Source: Bdellovibrionales bacterium (lineage in GTDB: Bacteria > Bdellovibrionota > Bdellovibrionia > Bdellovibrionales > JAKFYE01). From it: 64,000 bases of DNA. Below, one piece after another: positions 3,646 to 47,056 of the stretch; position 1 is the first letter of the stretch; every line of letters begins with the position of its first letter. Where the stretch lies: assembly GCA_021731045.1 (NCBI GenBank), contig JAKFYE010000018.1:3310-67309 (forward strand), given 5' to 3'. The translations under genes were made by a program, and so were the position numbers. The notes under the pieces were generated by a model that was not told the origin of the DNA, did not search any database, and saw only the letters and a program-made list of their open reading frames with translations.

Positions 3646-3719
3646 GGTGACGTAGCCAAGTGGTTAGGCTCCGCTCTGCAAAAGCGGCTACGCCGGTTCA
3701 ATTCCGGCCGTCACCTCCA
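3646..3719 (+). tRNA. tRNA-Cys (anticodon GCA)
   Basis: Hand-folded cloverleaf. Acceptor GGTGACG/CGTCACC is perfect. Anticodon arm CCGCT-CTGCAAA-AGCGG. T arm GCCGG-TTCAATT-CCGGC. Discriminator is U73 (a CysRS identity element) and CCA is encoded. Confidence 0.9.
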
Positions 3720-39580: not shown

Positions 39581-40066
39581 ATGAAACTCCTATCATTTAC
39601 ACTCACAATTGTACTTTCCTGTTTGGGATGCACCGTAGACTCTAAGCAATTGAGCGAAGAGGCATTGCCTTCACTCACTACCAGTTGTGGTGATTTATCA
39701 ACGATAGAATGTGAGATGTTCGTCGCGATTAATGGTGAGCGTACAAAAGCAGGTGCGAAGGCGTTAGCTTTGAATTCTACATGCACGTCAATGGCGCGTG
39801 ATCACGCCATTGATATGTTCACTCGTGCTTTTTTTTCTCATGATAGTCCGACTGAGACATTTCGCCAACGTTCAACGCGCTATGGACTTTCTAGCGGTTG
39901 GATTGGAGAGAATATCGCTAAAAATTCAAATGTTTCGGATACGCTGAGCCAATGGATGAATTCTGCAGGTCATAAAGCAAACATTCTTAGCGAAAATTAT
40001 CGTGCCACTGGGATCGGCTTTTATAAATCATATTGGGTTCAGTGCTTCACGAGCATGGGACTATAA
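39581..40066 (+). CDS. CAP/SCP (PR-1-like, YkwD-type) domain lipoprotein
   Basis: Lipobox LSCLGC. CAP motifs FFSHDSP, GENIA and NSAGHKANIL. Confidence 0.8.
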   Translation: MKLLSFTLTIVLSCLGCTVDSKQLSEEALPSLTTSCGDLSTIECEMFVAINGERTKAGAKALALNSTCTSMARDHAIDMFTRAFFSHDSPTETFRQRSTRYGLSSGWIGENIAKNSNVSDTLSQWMNSAGHKANILSENYRATGIGFYKSYWVQCFTSMGL

Positions 40067-40068
40067 AT

Positions 40069-40431
40069 ATGAGCCAAACAAAAAAACGATTCGATCAAAT
40101 CAGAAAAGCGGGCGCAAAAAAAGGCAGTGAGGCGCGTGTTAAAAAATCGTTTCTCGAGTATTTTAAAAAAAATAAGTCCAATGTGTCATTTGGTAAAAAA
40201 ATTGAACTCCTCTATGAATGGATGACCAGCGGAGAGCTATCGAAAAAAGACAAAGCTCTCGTTGTCGGCGCGCTGTTATATTTTATAAATCCGTTGGATG
40301 TGATACCTGATATCACGCCCTTTTTAGGATTCACGGACGACTTGGGCGTGGTATATTTAATTTATAATTACTTACAGAATCGTTCTCTCGAAGAATTACC
40401 GATCGAAGATTCAGAGTCTTCAGACGATTAA
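40069..40431 (+). CDS. DUF1232 (YkvA-like) membrane protein
   Basis: LLYFINPLDVIPDITPFLGFTDDLGVV is the DUF1232 signature. ATG 40069 chosen. Confidence 0.75.
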   Translation: MSQTKKRFDQIRKAGAKKGSEARVKKSFLEYFKKNKSNVSFGKKIELLYEWMTSGELSKKDKALVVGALLYFINPLDVIPDITPFLGFTDDLGVVYLIYNYLQNRSLEELPIEDSESSDD

Positions 40432-41057: not shown

Positions 41058-42740
41058 ATGGCTCATCTCAAACGCAGTCTTATCATTTTTATTTCTACGT
41101 TTCTACTCTGCGTAATTTGCGGCAGTGTTTTACATAATCTTTTTACCAGCACGCGCCTACAAACTTTGGTTGCTAAAATTCTTTCGGAGTCTGCACCTGG
41201 AATGCGGTGGACGGTTCATCGCGTGCAAGTTGAACTTTCAGATGGCCTGTTGCCAATCGTGGCTCTAAGTATTGGCGAAGTGTTGGGTGAACGGCTAGAT
41301 GTTTGTGATAATAATATTTCTTTAAATATACGGGATGTATTTTTACCTTTGGATATGACTTCACTGATTTTAGGACCAGTTCGCTTAGGAAAAATTCGTT
41401 TTCGTGAAATGATGGCGAATGAAATTCCAAAGGTCTTACAGTCTTGTAAAAATCAAAATGGTTCCGTCGTATTTAAAAATGGCGAAGTTTATATAAAAGA
41501 CAAAGTTTACGAATTTAAAGGTGTTTTTGAACCTAGCCCTGAGTTGTTAAGAGGCGAAGTTATTCCCCCTCTTACCTTATCAGGTACCTACATAGATGAG
41601 GTTGAAAAGAGAATTGATTTTGAAATTTTATGGAGAGAATCCAAAATCAACGGAAATTATAATGTAAGCACCGAAACCGTAGATATTAAAGCCACGAAAC
41701 TTCCGTCTTTTGAAATTATAAAAGTATTGAAAGGTTTGGGAGTACATCCTATTCCCACGAACTTAGGTCCAAACTGGATTGAGTTGTCAGCTCAGTACAC
41801 ACGAGCGCGACCTGATGGACTTAAAATAAATGAGATCGCGGTTTCGGGAGATATTGGCGATATCTCTGCTAGCGGTATTGACGTGCAGTTGAATCAAACA
41901 CTGCGATTTGCACCTTTTCAAATGACACTTAAAAAGGTTTCTATCTCTGAAGTTTCAAAAATGTTTGAGTTTGAAAGCTTTCCACGATTTTTTAAAAACC
42001 CTGGCCGAATTTCTGGAACTTTCGTTTACGGTAGCGATGCGCAAAAATTTTACGGGGACATTCTGGATGTCGATATAGAAGTCTCGAATCAGGGCCGCAA
42101 AAATTATTTTAGAATTTTAAAAACGAATTTAGATGTGACCTACAAAAATTCGCAATTTGAATCCTTTATAAAAGACTTTGAAATTAAAAATGGTAAAGCC
42201 AAAGGATTAGTTCACGTGGTTTTTGCTAAAAAAAATGCGCACACCGATTTTAAATTTACAACAGTTCAATTGGATCCGAGTGTTTTAGAGCACCTGCTGG
42301 CGATGCGTATGCAAAATGCGAGCATGGAAGGGCAAATCGAAATCATTGATTCTAAAATTAAATCTCTCTCTGCACGTTCAAAAATTACGGGACTCGAAGG
42401 AAAAGGCTTTAAAGCAGACGCGATTCAAGCTTCGGCCACTTTTAATACAAATACTCCCGGAACTTTATTTTTTGAAATGCCACAAGTCACCGTAGTACCC
42501 ACGAGCGACGCGCCTGAGGTTTTACATAAAATTCATGCAACGATTGAAGACAGTCGTGAGTGGATCAACATTAGAGGCCAACTCACAGGCACCGACGGCG
42601 AAATTCGTTTACGCACAATGAAGTTTGAATATCCCAATCACGCAATTTCAATTCTCCCAGATAAAAACAATCTAGAAGTATTAAATATCTGGGACACCAA
42701 AAAGAAAAAATCTCTAGGAACGATACCAGCCAAGCTTTAA
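41058..42740 (+). CDS. membrane-anchored hypothetical protein (possibly AsmA-like)
   Basis: 560 aa with an N-terminal TM anchor LIIFISTFLLCVICGSVL and a long beta-rich remainder. The family call is a guess. Confidence 0.5.
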   Translation: MAHLKRSLIIFISTFLLCVICGSVLHNLFTSTRLQTLVAKILSESAPGMRWTVHRVQVELSDGLLPIVALSIGEVLGERLDVCDNNISLNIRDVFLPLDMTSLILGPVRLGKIRFREMMANEIPKVLQSCKNQNGSVVFKNGEVYIKDKVYEFKGVFEPSPELLRGEVIPPLTLSGTYIDEVEKRIDFEILWRESKINGNYNVSTETVDIKATKLPSFEIIKVLKGLGVHPIPTNLGPNWIELSAQYTRARPDGLKINEIAVSGDIGDISASGIDVQLNQTLRFAPFQMTLKKVSISEVSKMFEFESFPRFFKNPGRISGTFVYGSDAQKFYGDILDVDIEVSNQGRKNYFRILKTNLDVTYKNSQFESFIKDFEIKNGKAKGLVHVVFAKKNAHTDFKFTTVQLDPSVLEHLLAMRMQNASMEGQIEIIDSKIKSLSARSKITGLEGKGFKADAIQASATFNTNTPGTLFFEMPQVTVVPTSDAPEVLHKIHATIEDSREWINIRGQLTGTDGEIRLRTMKFEYPNHAISILPDKNNLEVLNIWDTKKKKSLGTIPAKL

Positions 42741-42997
42741 GTTACGGCGTCAACGATAAGTAAATTGCGGTGATTAATATTGAAGATCATCTCTCACCAG
42801 AAACGTGTACTTCAATTATTTTTGAAGTCACAAAAGAATAATTGAAGTGCTTCCGATTTTTCAGAAAGTGCTAGAGCTCGGCCCAATGGATGCAAATTTA
42901 AAGCTTGACCCTGAACTCGAAAATGGACGTGATTAAATTAATTATGATAGATGTGAACTTGAATATATTTAATTTATAAATCTCTCCATTTTCTGAA

Positions 42998-43166
42998 GCC
43001 CCAACAGCCGCCGCTGGGTTTTAAGGTAAAATATTTTTGGATCAGTTGTTTCGTGTTTTTGGCGACGAAGGAGAGGTTGAGATTTGAAGATCAGTGTTGG
43101 AAAGACTATTTACCTGTCGTGCGACAGGTGAATTTTAGCTTGCGAAGTTCTAGCGGCTAGGAAAAG
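42998..43166 (+). repeat. structured repeat unit, copy 1 (forward), containing palindrome P1
   Basis: Aligns with the reverse complement of 44424-44652 at roughly 80-85 percent identity by eye, with two indels. P1 is ACCTGTCGTGCGACAGGT at 43112-43129. Confidence 0.8.
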
Positions 43167-43293
43167 GTTTTATTGTCGAGACTTTTTAAGTGGAAGATTG
43201 GCGGACGGGCGTGGCCCTTAAATGGGCCCGTGAGCCCGTTCCGTTCTGGCCAACTTTTAGGTGGGAAAAAATATTTGCCAGGAATTGGCAAAG

Positions 43294-43463
43294 CGGCTTC
43301 AAGGGGGCGTTGGAGCCCCGCCAGCCGCCGCTGATGTTTATCGTTAAATATTTTTTAGATCAGCTGCTTCGTGTTTTTAGCGACAACGGGTTAGAAATGG
43401 AGAGGTTGAGATTTGAAGATCCGTGTTGGAAAGACTATTTATCTGTCGTGCGACAGATAGATT
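43294..43463 (+). repeat. structured repeat unit, copy 2 (forward), containing the GC hairpin and palindrome variant P2
   Basis: CTTCAAGGGGGCGTTGGAGCCCCGCCAGCCGCC, then AAATATTTTT, CGTGTTTTTAGCGAC and GAGATTTGAAGAT, ending in ATCTGTCGTGCGACAGAT (43441-43458). Confidence 0.8.
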
Positions 43464-44087
43464 CTTTCGGTTTTTTAGCCTTTCAGATTTTTGTACTGGA
43501 TCTTGTTCTTTAAGATAAAGATCCAGCAGCACGTCTAGTGTTTCTTCAAGGCTCACAGACTTTCGCTTTTTTTGCGATTCAAGATCTTGCGCTCGTTTAA
43601 GTTTGCAACTTAATGATTCTGAAATACCAAGTTGTAAGTTAAGTCGATCCTCACTTACAAACTTCATTCGTTCAGGGACAGCTTGTTTGGGGCAAGCCTT
43701 AGCAACATAGTGTTCAAGTTTACGCTGCGGCAGTTGAACTGCCATCTGCAGCCACTCTTTTTGATTATCAAAAGTTAGCACAGGAGTAATCTTTCGAGCC
43801 TTTGACACACTCAAAGCCCCAGATTCAATAATAACTTTAAGCTCCGGAACTTCTTTAGCCTTACGAGCAACGGCAATAAAGTTAAAGGCAACACTTTCAG
43901 AAAGCTTTAAGATATTCATGGCGTATTCATGAAGGTTCTTACATTCAAAAAGATAGTAAACCCGGTACTCATCTGCTTGTTGTAAAATATCAAGAAGCTC
44001 AGCTTCAACCCGTTTATAACGCTCAACAATCCCAAGAGCCCGTTGATGTATCTCAAGCTGCATGTTTTTTTCTAAAGAATCTGTCAT
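43377..44087 (-). pseudogene. truncated HNH-endonuclease family gene (DUF222-like N-terminal domain only; HNH domain missing)
   Basis: The N-terminal 195 aa follow the pattern of delta-proteobacterial/Bdellovibrio HNH-endonuclease genes (ERYKRVEAELLDIL...LHEYAMNILKLSESVAFNFIAVARKAKEVPEL...ESGALSVSKA...DPVQK). The reading frame then runs into repeat unit 2/P2 and stops without any H-N-H or Cys-box. Confidence 0.5.
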
Positions 44088-44338
44088 GAAAATTTCTCCT
44101 TAAAATCAGAAGAAACCATAACATAGGTTTTAAAAAATCATTTTTAATGAATACAAAAGTCTCAATAGGATCTCTCAAAACATATTTATAACTTTATTAC
44201 GCTCTAGAGATTAAAAGATAAAAGCAAAACCACCAAAACAAAAACCAGACTTATTTAAACTCCACAATCAAACGAATAAGAAACAAAAAACACGTCAAGT
44301 ATTTTTCAAAGAAAAACAATTAATTAATCTAAAAAATC

Positions 44339-44356
44339 ACCTGTCGCGCGACAGGT
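44339..44356. repeat. solo palindrome P3
   Basis: ACCTGTCGCGCGACAGGT flanked by AATC...AAAT, as in P4 and P5. Confidence 0.75.
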
Positions 44357-44423
44357 AAATATCCATTATCAAAAAGATAATTAAATCAAAAAACAATCTC
44401 CACTCGCCACGACAACTCCTCTG

Positions 44424-44652
44424 AATTTTCCAAGCCGCTAGAACTTTACATCCTAAAAATCACCTGTCGCACGACAGGTAAATATACTTACCAACGCAAT
44501 CTTACCTCACACTTCCAACACCGATCTTCAAATCTCACCCCATCTCTCGCTAACCCCTCGTCGCCAAAAACACGAAACAACTGACCCAAAAATATTTTAC
44601 CGTAAAATCCAAGAGGCGTCTGTTGGGGCTCCAACGCCCCCTTGAAGACGCC
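44424..44652 (-). repeat. structured repeat unit, copy 3 (inverted relative to copy 1), containing P4
   Basis: P4 at 44462-44479. GC hairpin GGCGTCT..GGGGC-TCCAAC-GCCCC..AGACGCC at 44616-44652. Shares the AGCCGCTAGAACTT tail with copy 1. Confidence 0.8.
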
Positions 44653-44923
44653 ACGCCTAAACAAATTAAAATATTTTTCTCTGTGAACCAAGACTCCTCT
44701 CAATGCTGGCTTACGTATTCTCGATTCACTGCATCCACAAAAGGTGCTAGGCACCTTTTCTCCCAAACTGCGTCTGTTGGGGCTCCAACGCCCCCTTGAA
44801 GACGCCACGACTAAACAAATTAAAATATTTTTCTCTGTGAACCAAGACTCCTCTCAATGCTGGCTTACGTATTCTCGATTCATTGCATCCACAAAAGGTG
44901 CTAGGCACCTTTTCTCAGTACAA
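44616..44923 (-). repeat. 154-bp tandem duplication (2 copies)
   Basis: Copies start at 44616 and 44770 and differ at 2 positions over about 146 nt. Each holds the GC hairpin, an AAAATATTTTT box and a terminator-like hairpin AAAAGGTGC-TAG-GCACCTTTT (44739-44759 and 44893-44913). Confidence 0.85.
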
Positions 44924-44950
44924 AACAAAACGAATTATTATTCTAAATAA

Positions 44951-45166
44951 TCACCTGTCGCACGACAGGTAAACAACCATTCCGACACCGAACTTCAAAT
45001 CTTCACACATCTTCAAACTTAAACCTTCTCCCTCGCTAACCCCTCGTCGCCAAAAACACGAAACAACTGCCTCGAAAAATATTTTACATAAAAACCCAGA
45101 GGGCGGCTGGCGGGGCTCCAACGCCCCCTTGAAGACGCCACGCCTGACCTAATTAAAATATTTTTC
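44951..45166 (-). repeat. structured repeat unit, copy 4 (inverted orientation), containing P5
   Basis: P5 at 44953-44970, followed by the same conserved boxes (CGTCGCCAAAAACACGAAACAACTG, AAAATATTTT, GGGGCTCCAACGCCCCCTTGAAGACGCC). Confidence 0.8.
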
Positions 45167-45463
45167 CCCTGCAAAGTCGGAGGCAAGGGAAACTTCTAGT
45201 ATGACTACGACAGAAAAATACCAAACTTCAGACACAGAACTGGCTCAAAGGCCCAAAGGATAGCTCAGGGTTAGAAGTCCCTTATGTGTTTTTTCGTGAC
45301 TCAGGCGTTGTAGATAACAGCAAGATTGGAAGAATGCCTCTGTCTGAAAGTTGCCGAATCATGTCGTTAAGTGCCATCTTGCGAGACGAAGAATCTCTCG
45401 ACTAAATTTCGAACGAATTATTTCATTACCTAAGTATGAGTATTAAAACCTAGGCGACAAAAT

Positions 45464-47056
45464 TTAAACTGGCTTCTTAGATTCAACGTACTCTTCGTAC
45501 GTGGTGTATTTATCGTCTTTTAAATCGACGTCGATTTCGATAATGCGATTGGCGACAGTTTGGATGAACTCGTGGTCGTGAGACGCAAATATTACGGTGC
45601 CTTTAAATCGTTTCACGCCTTCATTAACGGCCGAGATACTTTCTAAATCCAAATGATTGGTCGGGCCGTCGATTAACAACACGTTGGCTCCCGAGAGCAT
45701 GGTTTTGGCAAACATGCAGCGCACTTTTTCTCCTCCAGAAAGAACTGTCGGTTTTTTAAGTGCCTCGTCTTTGTTGAAAAGCATTTTTCCTAGAAAGCCC
45801 CTAATAAAAGTTTCTTCTTTATCTTCAGAATATTGACGGAGCCAATCGACAAGTGAACTCGTTTCTCCGGTAAAATATTTAGAATTATCACTTGGAAAAT
45901 AACTTTTAGTAATGGTGATTCCCCAGGTTAGGCTTCCCGCATCGGGTTTTAACTCTCCAGCTAAAATATCAAAGAGTATAGACTTTGCCATGTCGTTACG
46001 CCCAAGAAGCGCAATTTTATCGCCTTTTTTAACAGTAAAATTAATGTTGTTGAGAACTTTTTGCCCTTGAATACTATGGCTGAGGCCACTCACGGTGAGA
46101 ATATCGTTGCCGGCCTCGCGTTTAATATCAAATCCGACAAATGGCTGGCGACGAGTGGAAACAGGCATTTCGGTGAGATCCAGTTTTTCCAATTGTTTTT
46201 GACGTGAAGAGGCCTGTCGAGATTTTGAAGCGTTCGCGCTGAATCTTTGAATAAAACTTTTTAACTCTTCAGCCTTATCGGCATTTTTTTTATTTTGATC
46301 GGAGCGTAAGCGAAGATTGAGCTCGCTCGCTTGTCGCCAAAAATCGTAATTGCCCGAGTAAATGGTAACTTTAGAAAAATCAATATCAGCTGTATGCGTA
46401 CAGACTTTATTTAAAAAATACCGATCATGTGAAACCACAATGACGGTATTAGGAAAATTAAAAAGAAATTCTTCTAACCACTGAATCGCATAAATATCGA
46501 GATGGTTCGTCGGTTCATCTAACAATAAGATATCAGGTTGACCGATTAGCGCTTGGGCTAAGAGGACTTTGACTTTATCCGAGCCGCTGAGTTCCTTCAT
46601 CAACTTTTGATGGAAAGACTCTGGTATACCTAAACCTGCCAACATAACACCGGCCTCGGATTCAGCCTCCCAACCATTGAGTTCAATAAATTCGGTTTCA
46701 AGTTCAGAGGCGCGAATGCCGTCTTTCTCAGAAAAATCGGGTTTTGCATAAAGTGCGTCTTTTTCTTCAACAATCTTGAAAAGTTTTTGGTTTCCCATCA
46801 GGACGGTTTTTAAAACGGGCGCATCATCATAGGCATAGTGATCTTGCTTCAATGTTGAAATACGTAAATCCGGAGCAATGTGAACTTCACCCGTATTAGG
46901 TTCAATCTCTTTAGAAAGAATTTTTAAAAATGTGGTTTTTCCGGCACCATTAGCGCCGATGAGGCCGTAACAATTGCCGGGAGTGAACTTGATGTTCACA
47001 TCTTCAAAAAGTTTCTTTCCCCCATAACGGAGGCTGACATTCGTTGTGCTAATCAT
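45464..47056 (-). CDS. ABC-F family ATPase (YbiT-like, two ABC domains, no TM domain)
   Basis: 530 aa. Two Walker A motifs (GANGAGKTT and a degenerate GRNDMAKS), two signatures (LSGSDKVK, LSGGEKVR), and an inter-domain linker. Confidence 0.9.
   Translation of the reverse strand: MISTTNVSLRYGGKKLFEDVNIKFTPGNCYGLIGANGAGKTTFLKILSKEIEPNTGEVHIAPDLRISTLKQDHYAYDDAPVLKTVLMGNQKLFKIVEEKDALYAKPDFSEKDGIRASELETEFIELNGWEAESEAGVMLAGLGIPESFHQKLMKELSGSDKVKVLLAQALIGQPDILLLDEPTNHLDIYAIQWLEEFLFNFPNTVIVVSHDRYFLNKVCTHTADIDFSKVTIYSGNYDFWRQASELNLRLRSDQNKKNADKAEELKSFIQRFSANASKSRQASSRQKQLEKLDLTEMPVSTRRQPFVGFDIKREAGNDILTVSGLSHSIQGQKVLNNINFTVKKGDKIALLGRNDMAKSILFDILAGELKPDAGSLTWGITITKSYFPSDNSKYFTGETSSLVDWLRQYSEDKEETFIRGFLGKMLFNKDEALKKPTVLSGGEKVRCMFAKTMLSGANVLLIDGPTNHLDLESISAVNEGVKRFKGTVIFASHDHEFIQTVANRIIEIDVDLKDDKYTTYEEYVESKKPV

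What the first reader, a model, noticed from the sequence alone, without database searches (positions are those of the whole stretch)
42998..45166. 2.2-kb non-coding mosaic of structured repeats bracketing an HNH-family gene remnant
Seen: four copies of a ~170-230-nt unit occur here, two forward (42998-43166, 43294-43463) and two inverted (44424-44652, 44951-45166). They share ordered conserved boxes. These are a compound GC hairpin (GGCGTCT..GGGGC-TCCAAC-GCCCC..AGACGCC), a palindromic AAAATATTTT box, CAGTTGTTTCGTGTTTTTGGCGACGA, GAGATTTGAAGAT, and a terminal 18-nt palindrome ACCTGTCG-NN-CGACAGGT. The palindrome has five copies at 43112, 43441, 44339, 44462 and 44953. Copies 1 and 3 are inverted relative to each other about 1.25 kb apart and flank the 236-aa HNH-family remnant, sharing even the extra tail AAGTTCTAGCGGCT. 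ORFs called inside the units are not frame-conserved between copies, so the conservation is at nucleotide or structure level. Inference: this is a REP/BIME-like or MITE-like element family, or a family of structured RNAs, possibly mobilised by or co-evolving with the HNH-type gene. I know of no described element with this box order.
Basis: partly seen in the sequence, partly recalled or inferred. Interest (0 to 1): 0.7.

Follow-up and report, generated by a model that had tools for sequence, protein, structure and literature searches.

The report
Local repeats anchored on HNH-gene palindrome
The repeats are real, but they are local, recombined copies of DNA, each anchored on an 18-base palindrome that proves to be a built-in DNA site of a large, unstudied family of HNH nuclease genes, which carry it inside their own coding sequence and often again just upstream.

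Summary
In detail: four ~170-230-nt units, one partial 5' copy, one degenerate 3' end and five copies of ACCTGTCG-NN-CGACAGGT lie at 42998-45166 and nowhere else in the 64-kb window.

The 236-aa ORF is the N-terminal 216 aa of a ~270-aa protein. It diverges from an intact 97%-identical relative exactly at the palindrome, which encodes "SVARQ". About half of the homologues carry a palindrome at this inter-domain linker position. These palindromes are hypervariable in sequence, conserved at synonymous sites, and mostly symmetric through their centre. That favours a duplex site for a dimeric protein over a hairpin. In 7 of 27 testable loci the same palindrome recurs upstream, and in two paralogues it marks the left edge of the ~1.1-kb repeated gene element. 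The N-terminal domain models as a ParB/Noc-like HTH (fold-level evidence only).

The unit bodies are lineage-restricted. They show no RNA covariation, no Rfam match, no TIR/TSD and no dispersal, and they are gene-conversion mosaics. My best reading is that they are multiplied 5'-flank modules of HNH elements, rearranged at the palindrome, with the nuclease domain deleted. REP/MITE and structured-RNA readings are not supported. The family-level palindrome architecture appears undescribed.

The parts
42998..43129 (+). Unit c1 (body plus palindrome 43112-43129). It is 5'-truncated and starts in the middle of the GC hairpin.
   Evidence: nhmmer E=7e-51; alignments. It is a mosaic: closest to c3 in the 5' part and to c2 in the 3' part.
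43130..43200 (+). Tail A after the c1 palindrome, homologous to the tail after the c3 palindrome.
   Evidence: Inverted repeat I2, 87%. tailA c1 vs c3 z=8.9.
43196..43245 (.). Second, unrelated compound GC hairpin between c1 and c2.
   Evidence: Read from the sequence; not analysed further.
43294..43458 (+). Unit c2. Its terminal palindrome (43441-43458, ATCTGTCGTGCGACAGAT) is also the linker palindrome of the HNH gene on the opposite strand.
   Evidence: nhmmer E=2e-61. The tblastn match of intact homologues ends at 43440. Codon view.
43377..44087 (-). 236-aa ORF. Residues 1-216 form the N-terminal (ParB/Noc-like HTH) domain of a ~270-aa HNH-family protein. The last 20 residues are read-through into unit c2. 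The HNH domain is absent.
   Evidence: 97% identity to the intact 273-aa P0001 over aa 1-216. AF2 pLDDT 93 and Foldseek matches to ParB/Noc/Spo0J DBDs.
44088..44338 (-). HNH upstream region: a -35-like TTGACG at 44298-44293 and a long 5' leader. Its first ~32 nt form 'tail B'.
   Evidence: A TTGACA-like hexamer is conserved downstream of the upstream palindrome in 7 loci. The promoter is inferred, not shown.
44339..44356 (.). 'Solo' palindrome. This is the upstream copy of the gene's own site, 252 nt before the ATG, with a degenerate ~35-nt unit 3' end at 44357-44387.
   Evidence: Equivalent upstream copies occur in L108, L109, L190 and L191.
44424..44652 (-). Unit c3 with palindrome 44462-44479 and tail A (44357-44461).
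   Evidence: nhmmer E=5e-61. tailA(c3) vs the HNH promoter-proximal region z=3.5.
44609..44916 (-). 154-bp tandem duplication (97% identical). It contains the GC hairpin, the AAAATATTTT box and a terminator-like hairpin AAAAGGTGCCTAGCACCTTTT.
   Evidence: Family D2.
44951..45166 (-). Unit c4 with palindrome 44953-44970, followed at 44921-44952 by tail B, which is homologous to the start of the HNH upstream region.
   Evidence: nhmmer E=7e-61. Family D3, 84%. tailB vs promoter region z=4.1.

Best explanation
The 18-nt palindrome is not a private end of a new repeat family. It is the cognate duplex-DNA site of the adjacent HNH-family gene. Genes of this family encode an N-terminal ParB/Noc-like helix-turn-helix domain, a short linker and a C-terminal HNH nuclease. 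About half of them carry a dyad-symmetric 12-20-bp site inside the linker codons. In roughly a quarter of testable loci the same site is also present upstream, where it marks the left edge of the ~1.1-kb repeated gene element (site, promoter, ~200-nt leader, gene). The 'units' are lineage-specific DNA lying on one side of that site, most likely the 5'-flank module (or landing pad) of such elements. They have been multiplied locally in tandem and inverted orientation, homogenised in patches by gene conversion, and rejoined to different partners exactly at the palindrome. One such event fused the resident gene's N-terminal domain to an inverted unit (c2) and deleted the nuclease domain.

Shown: the site is a nucleotide-level, position-specific family trait; the upstream and linker copies co-vary; the junctions in the window fall at the palindrome; the units are mosaic and purely local.

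Inferred: the protein's own HTH domain binds the site as a dimer; breaks or pairing at these sites (possibly made by intact HNH paralogues) drive the recombination.
For: (1) The window ORF and the intact 97%-identical P0001 diverge exactly at the palindrome.
(2) The same palindrome lies in the linker codons of L108, L109, L110 and L192, and upstream of the gene in the window, L108 and L109. L190 and L191 carry a variant of it upstream.
(3) Positional enrichment: of 59 full-length genes, 21 and 10 have a palindrome in the two bins at 70-80% of gene length, against ~2 per bin elsewhere.
(4) The sequences are hypervariable and fall in different reading frames.
(5) Synonymous-site constraint: only 5 of 97 conserved-residue columns keep one codon in all five genes, and 3 of those are the palindrome's GTC, CGA and CAG. 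The preceding residue varies S/A/P but keeps 'CT'. The palindrome is the most conserved 14-nt window of the CDS, 13/14 invariant against 42% overall.
(6) 18 of 40 distinct linker palindromes have loop 0 and 30 of 40 have loop <=2, against ~13% per loop size by chance. A hairpin gains nothing from central complementarity, whereas a site for a two-fold symmetric dimer does.
(7) The same palindrome recurs upstream in 7 of 27 testable loci against 2.2% of shuffles, with different sequences in different loci (L116, L140, L151, L159).
(8) The upstream copy lies 40-65 nt before a conserved TTGACA in four of the five loci that have it (~270 nt in L108), so outside the inferred mRNA.
(9) Homology between paralogues L190 and L191 runs from the upstream palindrome to exactly the stop codon.
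(10) The N-domain model (pLDDT 93) matches only ParB/Noc/Spo0J DNA-binding domains consistently: probability 0.96-1.00, RMSD 2.6-3.7 A, TM 0.60-0.63 relative to the Noc DBD.
(11) In the window all five palindromes have the unit body on one side. The other side is one of three partners: tail A (c1, c3), tail B leading to the promoter (c4, solo), or antisense HNH-N (c2).
(12) The unit bodies are patchworks: c1 resembles c3 in one part and c2 in another.
(13) Tails A and B resemble the HNH promoter-proximal region (z=3.5 and 4.1).
(14) N-domain-only truncations ending in the linker recur in the family.
(15) The distantly related DUF222-HNH REP13E12 repeats of M. tuberculosis are reported as top gene-conversion hotspots of unknown function (PMC13061034).
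Against: There is no direct evidence that the protein binds or cuts the site. The ParB/Noc similarity is fold-level only: Foldseek E-values are 0.15-0.5, phmmer finds no ParB, and Pfam HTH_ParB hits 1 of 28 members weakly. The most conserved part of the N-domain (..VARKAKEVPELK..SG.LSVSKARKI..) is nearly invariant while the palindromes vary widely, so the specificity determinants are not evident. About half of the family genes show no strong linker palindrome, only 7 of 27 have the upstream copy, and L110 and L192 lack it. A 'recombination by-product' reading does not by itself explain two features of the unit bodies: the 26-nt box identical in three copies, and the very strong strand asymmetry (GC skew +0.25 and -0.3 to -0.5). 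In the unit's forward orientation all five window palindromes also look like intrinsic terminators. The closest paralogues or orthologues (P0001 cluster) could not be inspected.
Confidence: 0.55

Rival explanations
1. The units form a functional cis-acting array of binding sites (operator- or centromere-like) for the truncated, nuclease-less N-domain protein. Under this reading a domesticated DNA-binding protein works with five sites spread over 1.9 kb, and the unit bodies serve as spacers or accessory sites.
For: Five sites cluster around the gene. N-domain-only proteins recur and are conserved: P0027 and P0029 share a C-terminus. The N-domain has a ParB/Noc-like fold. From general knowledge, plasmid centromeres such as sopC are arrays of repeats that each hold one dyad site.
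Against: Each ~200-nt unit holds only one site. The unit bodies are mosaics with indels of 11-24 nt, which is not what regular spacing would give. The ORF's last 20 residues are read-through into a unit, as in a recent accident. No second locus shows such an array.
Confidence: 0.15
2. The units are small-RNA genes (or one multi-copy sRNA family). Each would be transcribed towards the palindrome, which acts as a Rho-independent terminator.
For: In the unit's forward orientation all five palindromes score as hairpin plus T-tail terminators (9 found against 3.0 expected). The forward strand is strongly G+T-rich. The TAAAAT-like box is conserved.
Against: No Rfam match, even at E<=10. RNAalifold supports only the two hairpins, with covariation term +1.38. 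The fold z-score is only -2.0. No convincing -35/-10 pair is conserved. Upstream palindromes of other family loci have no T-tail. Central symmetry of the palindrome family argues for a duplex site. The unit-derived ORF has no protein homologues, and the unit has no DNA homologues anywhere searched.
Confidence: 0.1
3. The units are a REP/BIME-like or MITE-like mobile repeat family that happens to have accumulated next to an HNH gene, or is mobilised by it.
For: They have a palindromic end, a GC hairpin, a size of 170-230 nt and an inverted pair flanking a nuclease-family gene. The rest of the genome was not searchable.
Against: All copies lie in one 2.2-kb locus of a 64-kb window. There are no TIRs within a unit and no TSDs. 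There is no Y1 (RAYT) or DDE transposase nearby. Units are absent from 86 family loci and from the syntenic relative. The palindrome is explained by the HNH gene family itself.
Confidence: 0.07
4. The palindrome acts as a nucleic-acid hairpin. It could be an mRNA attenuator or RNase site between the two domains, or a single-strand DNA hairpin used as a transposon-end-like signal. Under this reading the protein's HTH is not involved.
For: Both-arm changes keep pairing across the family. c2's palindrome changed symmetrically. Its position between two domains would suit attenuation of a toxic nuclease.
Against: 18 of 40 are perfect through the centre and 30 of 40 have a loop <=2 nt, which a hairpin neither needs nor can use. 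The upstream copy lies before the inferred promoter. No Y1/HUH or other ssDNA transposase is associated.
Confidence: 0.13

Closest known systems
DUF222-HNH 'REP13E12' repeat elements of Mycobacterium tuberculosis
   Same: Both are multi-copy ~1.1-1.4-kb elements consisting essentially of one gene with a helical N-terminal domain and a C-terminal HNH. Paralogues show mosaic variation. REP13E12 repeats are reported as gene-conversion hotspots with no defined function (PMC13061034). The P0001 cluster here shows the same kind of mosaic variation.
   Different: Sequence relationship is at best remote: Pfam DUF222 hits 1 of 28 members at E=0.007. I found no report of a linker palindrome or an upstream copy for REP13E12. 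The hosts here are Bdellovibrionota-like bacteria (source names).
ParB-parS and Noc-NBS (HTH dimers on 16-bp palindromes)
   Same: The best and only consistent structural matches of the N-domain are ParB/Noc/Spo0J DBDs. The sites are 12-20-bp perfect palindromes, and some resemble parS/NBS half-sites (GTTCACGTGAAC in L131, ACTTTCCTGAGGAAAGT in L171). From general knowledge, a parS site lies inside the B. subtilis spo0J coding sequence, so a site inside the binder's own gene has precedent.
   Different: No ParB N-terminal CTPase/Srx domain is present. There is no ParA partner or par operon context. The domain is fused to an HNH nuclease. The sites are hypervariable between homologues, not conserved. 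No sequence-level match to ParB was found.
Free-standing HNH homing endonuclease genes (phage I-HmuI or mob/seg type)
   Same: Both are small selfish single-gene elements combining an HNH nuclease with a DNA-binding module. They sit in unrelated genomic contexts, for example between flagellin genes in L108 and next to DNA polymerase III alpha in L192. Rearrangements fall at the presumed recognition site.
   Different: Homing endonucleases usually recognise long asymmetric sites that the insertion disrupts. Here the presumed site is dyad-symmetric, intact, and located inside and beside the gene itself. No cleavage or homing was shown.
REP/BIME elements with RAYT transposases
   Same: Palindrome-bearing extragenic repeats in both orientations flank a nuclease-superfamily gene.
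   Different: From general knowledge, REPs are 20-40 nt, number in the tens to hundreds per genome, and RAYTs are Y1 HUH transposases. Here the units are ~200 nt and purely local, and the gene is an HTH-HNH.
IscB with omega-RNA (HEARO) of IS200/IS605
   Same: The HNH domain's best sequence matches are IscB HNH domains. A ~200-nt conserved non-coding unit lies upstream of the gene in the same orientation.
   Different: There is no RuvC or PLMP domain (the protein is ~270 aa). No HEARO or other Rfam match was found. There is no RNA covariation, and the scores are far below the NCBIfam cut-off (24-29 bits against 175).

Membership tests
REP/BIME (REP-RAYT) | Many dispersed extragenic copies per genome | tested here: not met
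   All copies lie in one 2.2-kb locus of the 64-kb window. The rest of the genome was not available.
REP/BIME (REP-RAYT) | Short (20-40 nt) imperfect palindromic unit associated with a Y1 (RAYT) transposase | tested here: not met
   The units are 170-230 nt. The neighbouring gene is HTH-HNH and no Y1 transposase is in the locus.
MITE | Terminal inverted repeats on each unit and target-site duplications | tested here: not met
   Unit ends (AAAATATTTT / GC hairpin against palindrome) are not inverted copies of each other, and no flanking direct duplications were seen.
MITE | Dispersed copies at unrelated insertion sites | tested here: not met
   None in the window, 86 family loci, a syntenic relative, or viral, phage and plasmid collections.
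Described structured RNA family (Rfam) | Match to a covariance model | tested here: not met
   No hit at gathering thresholds over the window, and only chance-level hits at E<=10 over 42700-45500.
Structured RNA (novel) | Compensatory base changes supporting a conserved fold | tested here: not met
   RNAalifold on 4 copies gives covariation term +1.38. Only 1 of 44 pairs shows a double change, and that pair is in the palindrome. Power is low with 4 sequences.
Intrinsic terminator | GC-containing hairpin followed by a T-run | tested here: inconclusive
   The pattern is met at all five window palindromes in one orientation. It is absent at the upstream palindromes of L108, L109, L190 and L191, and the palindrome family is centre-symmetric.
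HNH endonuclease (PF01844) | beta-beta-alpha-Me HNH domain | tested here: not met
   The window ORF has no HNH domain, and no remnant is found anywhere in the window. All 28 intact homologues have it, so the window gene is a truncated member of the family.
DUF222-HNH / REP13E12 | Pfam DUF222 N-terminal domain | tested here: inconclusive
   1 of 28 members hits DUF222, at E=0.007. The relationship is remote at best.
ParB/Noc-type HTH DNA-binding domain | HTH DBD fold | tested here: inconclusive
   Foldseek top hits are consistently ParB/Noc/Spo0J (probability 0.96-1.00, TM 0.60-0.63 relative to the Noc DBD), but E-values are 0.15-0.5. Pfam HTH_ParB hits 1 of 28. phmmer finds no ParB.
ParB/Noc-type HTH DNA-binding domain | Binding of a cognate dyad-symmetric site | not testable with these tools
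   Only indirect support: centre-symmetric palindromes, position-specific and co-varying between the upstream and linker copies.
ParABS partition system | ParB N-terminal CTPase domain and a ParA partner | tested here: not met
   No such domain is in the protein, and no ParA is adjacent in any locus.
IscB / omega-RNA (HEARO) | RuvC and PLMP domains with an omega-RNA | tested here: not met
   Only the HNH segment matches (24-29 bits against a cut-off of 175). There is no HEARO hit.
Homing endonuclease gene | Site-specific cleavage of a cognate site and copying into it | not testable with these tools
   Context is consistent: a single-gene element in unrelated neighbourhoods, with paralogue homology ending at the palindrome and the stop codon. 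No cleavage data exist.

The most novel reading that the evidence does not exclude
A large, unannotated family (about 1,900 clusters at 50% identity) of ParB-like-HTH-HNH genes may be self-recognising selfish elements. Under this reading each encodes a nuclease whose own fast-evolving dyad-symmetric recognition site is written into the linker codons between its two domains and repeated at the element's 5' edge. Binding and nicking or cleavage at these sites would drive gene conversion, spread and local rearrangement. The window would then show the aftermath: five sites, multiplied 5' modules and a gene whose nuclease domain was recombined away.
Probability: 0.25. Interest if true: 0.8.

Novelty: new variant of a known kind. 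Interest (0 to 1): 0.55.

Why it matters
For the finding as written, the result is deflationary. The units are not a new mobile repeat or RNA family. They are local debris and modules organised around one site.

What makes the locus worth keeping is that site. It is a coding-embedded, centre-symmetric, hypervariable palindrome conserved at synonymous positions in a large family of HTH-HNH genes that no library annotates beyond 'HNH', and it is often duplicated at the element's edge. I did not find this described (literature searches).

If the protein recognises its own site, the family offers a natural series of nuclease and site pairs with diverging specificity. It would also offer a testable mechanism for how single-gene HNH elements, including the enigmatic mycobacterial REP13E12 repeats, spread and provoke gene conversion. 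It is also a caution for annotation: palindromes and 'repeats' next to such genes may be parts of the gene element, not independent elements.

Tried and rejected
(1) A genome-contig scan with the 17-mer TTCGTGTTTTTRGCGAC was too short for ~600 Gb.
(2) Fetching the closest relatives failed. P0001, P0078, P0083 and the window's own flanking proteins are not on record.
(3) Units as decayed HNH-domain coding sequence: tblastn finds no C-terminal domain remnant in the window.
(4) Units as a conserved flank of HNH genes in other genomes: no significant alignment to L108, L109 or L110 flanks, and nhmmer hits only the palindrome. My by-eye match in L108 was not significant.
(5) A unit-derived ORF as a handle on other copies: no protein homologues.
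(6) Simple inversion between the upstream and linker palindromes: re-inverting 43459-44338 does not restore an HNH domain, because the sequence after the solo palindrome is a degenerate unit end.
(7) Programmed -1 frameshifting at A AAA AAC before the hairpin: the heptamer is absent in L109 and other loci, so I dropped it.
(8) Viral contigs, phage and plasmid collections: no unit.
(9) Sequence-level ParB homology: none.
(10) The phiRv1 attB lead in REP13E12 was not followed beyond a search.
(11) My first palindrome scripts had two bugs: a nested-hit filter that dropped L109, and negative indexing for genes at contig starts (L156, L167, L171 and L177). The counts given exclude these.
Full report
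OBSERVATION.
The 18-nt palindrome ACCTGTCG-NN-CGACAGGT occurs five times, at 43112, 43441, 44339, 44462 and 44953, against none in 100 shuffles. A profile of the four units recovers them at E 1e-51 to 1e-61, together with a 5' partial copy (44831-44763) and a 3' end around the 'solo' palindrome. The inverted c1/c3 pair with its shared tail is confirmed. The copies differ by indels of 11, 19 and 24 nt, so they have no common reading frame. Some corrections are needed. c1 lacks half of the GC hairpin. The 26-nt box is exact in only three copies. A 154-bp tandem duplication (97% identical) supplies an extra hairpin. The region is also not wholly non-coding. Every repeat of 40 nt or more in the 64-kb window belongs to this locus.

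THE PALINDROME BELONGS TO THE HNH GENE.
The 236-aa ORF (43377-44087, minus strand) has 77 homologues, mostly 265-340 aa with a C-terminal HNH domain, from Bdellovibrionales/Oligoflexia-type sources. The closest, P0001 (273 aa, 97% identical), matches up to '...NLSVARQ' and then continues into an HNH domain, whereas the window ORF runs into unit c2. The tblastn match ends at 43440, the edge of the palindrome, and no remnant of the HNH domain exists anywhere in the window. 'SVARQ' is encoded by the palindrome itself (A TCT GTC GCA CGA CAG AT). Intact genes from other genomes (L108, L109, L110, L192) carry CTGTCGCGCGACAG or CTGTCGCACGACAG at the same codons. L108 and L109 carry a second identical copy 480 and 270 nt upstream of the start, which corresponds to the window's 'solo' palindrome 252 nt upstream.

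THE SITE IS A FAMILY-WIDE, NUCLEOTIDE-LEVEL, DUPLEX-TYPE FEATURE.
- Position. Across 59 full-length genes fetched from metagenomes, palindromes with stems of at least 6 bp pile up at 70-80% of gene length: 21 and 10 loci in the two bins, against about 2 per bin elsewhere. This is the linker between the two domains.
- Sequence diversity. The palindromes are very diverse (for example CCTGGCACGTGCCAGG, ACCTTGCCCGGGCAAGGT, CCTTCCTAAGGAAGG, CACTTGCACGTGCAAGTG) and fall in different frames.
- Synonymous sites. In the five genes that share the window's palindrome, only 5 of 97 columns with a conserved degenerate residue keep one codon in all five. Three of those five are the palindrome's GTC, CGA and CAG. 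The preceding residue changes (S/A/P) but keeps its 'CT'. The palindrome is the most conserved 14-nt window of the whole CDS (13/14 invariant, against 42% overall).
- Central symmetry. Eighteen of 40 distinct linker palindromes are symmetric through the centre (loop 0) and 30 of 40 have a loop of 2 nt or less, whereas chance gives about 13% per loop size. A hairpin cannot pair its central bases, so this symmetry favours a duplex site read by a two-fold symmetric protein over an RNA or single-strand DNA hairpin.
- Upstream copy. The same palindrome recurs within 700 nt upstream in 7 of 27 testable loci, against 2.2% of shuffled controls, with locus-specific sequences (L116, L140, L151, L159 and the window clade) (four edge artefacts excluded).
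- Promoter position. In four of the five close-clade loci that have it, the upstream copy lies 40-65 nt before a conserved TTGACA; in L108 the distance is about 270 nt. The upstream copy therefore lies outside the inferred transcript. The promoter itself is inferred, not shown.
- Element boundaries. Two paralogues from one sample (L190, L191) share homology from the upstream palindrome to exactly the stop codon and nothing beyond. The repeated element is therefore ~1.1 kb: site, promoter, ~200-nt leader and gene.
- Genomic context. The elements sit in unrelated neighbourhoods, such as between flagellin genes or next to dnaE. They are multi-copy: a second HNH gene lies in L191, two paralogues share the 88-kb contig of P0012/P0016, and the P0001 cluster holds eight members at 91-94% identity with mosaic differences.

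THE PROTEIN.
Only the HNH domain is recognised by Pfam, NCBIfam, PADLOC and PHROGs. It is closest to the IscB, McrA and group II maturase HNH domains. The ~200-aa N-terminal domain is uncatalogued. AlphaFold models are confident (pLDDT 85 for the full-length protein and 93 for the domain alone). In Foldseek the only consistent matches are the HTH DNA-binding domains of ParB, Spo0J and Noc, with probability 0.96-1.00, RMSD 2.6-3.7 A over ~108 columns, and TM 0.60-0.63 relative to the Noc DBD. The E-values are weak, at 0.15-0.5. Sequence searches do not find ParB, and Pfam HTH_ParB hits 1 of 28 members weakly. From general knowledge, ParB and Noc bind 16-bp palindromes as dimers, which fits the sites found here. 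This step remains an inference. The family is large: 1,905 representatives at E<=1e-30 in the 50%-identity library.

WHAT THE UNITS ARE.
Beyond the palindrome, the unit body has no detectable relative anywhere I could search. That covers 86 family loci, the flanks of L108, L109 and L110, a syntenic relative that has the CAP, DUF1232 and AsmA-like genes but no HNH, units or palindrome, viral contigs, phages and plasmids, the protein database via a unit ORF, and Rfam. RNAalifold supports only the GC hairpin and the palindrome.

Within the locus, each of the five palindromes has the unit body on one side. The other side is one of three partners:
- tail A, at c1 and c3;
- tail B, at c4 and the solo copy, where it continues into the HNH promoter region;
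- the antisense of the HNH N-domain, at c2.
The palindrome is therefore a junction at which segments have been exchanged, at least twice independently. The bodies themselves are patchworks. c1 is closest to c3 in columns 91-150 and in the tail, but closest to c2 in columns 181-270, and its hairpin arm is a hybrid. That is the signature of gene conversion, not of selection on fixed boxes. Tails A and B both resemble the start of the HNH upstream region (z=3.5 and 4.1). Each 'unit + palindrome + tail' therefore looks like a truncated 5' end of an HNH element.

A simple route to the c2 junction is deletion between the linker palindrome of the resident gene and the upstream palindrome of a convergent element. 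That would remove the nuclease domain. This route is inferred. N-domain-only homologues ending in the linker recur in the family. L109 has a third solitary site, 22/23 identical to the window's unit end including the TATTTA flank, in otherwise unrelated DNA. Extra sites near these genes are therefore not unique to the window.

MECHANISM.
My committed model is as follows. The HTH domain dimer binds the dyad site. The gene element carries the site at its 5' edge and in its linker. Breaks or synapsis at these sites, possibly made by intact paralogous nucleases, promote gene conversion, duplication and deletion. In this lineage the DNA left of the upstream site (the unit) travels with, or is the landing pad of, the element and has been multiplied.

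Shown: the site's position specificity, its synonymous-site constraint, its central symmetry, the covariation between upstream and linker copies, the junctions at the palindrome, and the mosaic, purely local units.

Inferred: binding by the gene's own protein, nuclease involvement, and the promoter.

Against the model:
- The best-conserved N-domain segment is nearly invariant although the sites vary widely.
- Half of the genes lack a strong linker palindrome.
- The upstream copy is present in only about a quarter of testable loci.
- The units' strong strand asymmetry (GC skew up to -0.5) is unexplained.
- The 26-nt box identical in three copies is unexplained.
- The palindromes look like terminators in one orientation, which keeps an sRNA reading alive at low probability.

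COMPARISON WITH KNOWN SYSTEMS AND NOVELTY.
The nearest named relatives are the DUF222-HNH REP13E12 repeats of M. tuberculosis. They are multi-copy, are gene-conversion hotspots and have no defined function (PMC13061034), but the sequence link is remote. The locus works like a ParB/parS-type protein and site pair fused to a homing-type HNH nuclease. It fails the membership tests for ParABS, REP/RAYT, MITE, IscB/omega-RNA and every Rfam family. Literature searches found no description of a coding-embedded, hypervariable palindrome with an upstream twin in HNH genes.

I rate the family-level site architecture as a new variant of a known kind, the single-gene HNH selfish element. Interest is 0.55.

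Noticed in passing
window 44200-45200 and 43000-43400: Very strong strand asymmetry in the units and the HNH leader. GC skew is -0.3 to -0.5 on the plus strand at 44200-45200 and +0.25 at 43000-43400, so the unit-forward and HNH-sense strand is G+T-rich and C-poor. In L108 the corresponding upstream region is C+A-rich on the sense strand instead.
   Followed up: partly
window 44609-44916: A 154-bp tandem duplication (97% identical) carries a terminator-like hairpin AAAAGGTGCCTAGCACCTTTT (44739-44759 and 44893-44913). This indicates recent local duplication activity.
   Followed up: partly
window 43196-43245: A second compound GC-rich hairpin (GGCGGACGGGCGTGGCCCTTAAATGGGCCCGTGAGCCCGTTCC...) lies between c1 and c2. 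It is unrelated in sequence to the unit's hairpin.
   Followed up: no
L109 8593-8617: A third solitary site, TATTTACCTGTTGTGCGACAGGT, lies ~1.1 kb upstream of the element's own upstream palindrome. It is 22/23 identical to the window's unit end including the TATTTA flank, in otherwise unrelated DNA.
   Followed up: partly
L191 11913-12813; L108 14913-15482; the P0012/P0016 contig: Further HNH genes lie on the same contigs as family members: a 302-aa gene at the end of L191, a 189-aa HNH/HNH_5 gene in L108, and two paralogues on one 88.5-kb contig. The family is multi-copy within genomes.
   Followed up: no
L190 2124-2408 and L191 5733-6001: The ~200-nt leader between the conserved TTGACA-N15-TAGAAT promoter-like element and the ATG is conserved between the two paralogues (~78%). 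It may contain its own regulatory structure.
   Followed up: no
L108 10580-10613; window 43459-43490 (minus strand): In-frame A AAA AAC heptamers (slippery-sequence-like) lie just upstream of the linker palindrome in some genes. They are not conserved (absent in L109), so a frameshift role was dropped.
   Followed up: partly
proteins P0027 and P0029: N-domain-only homologues of 217 and 226 aa share the same C-terminal 'ASVT'. This suggests a stable nuclease-less subfamily, not random truncations.
   Followed up: no
window 39581-40431: The CAP-domain ORF (39581-40066) and the DUF1232-like ORF (40033-40431) overlap by 34 nt. The same gene pair, followed by the AsmA-like gene, is syntenic in L195.
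   Followed up: no
window 3646-3719: tRNA-Cys (GCA) is the only RNA gene detected in the window.
   Followed up: no
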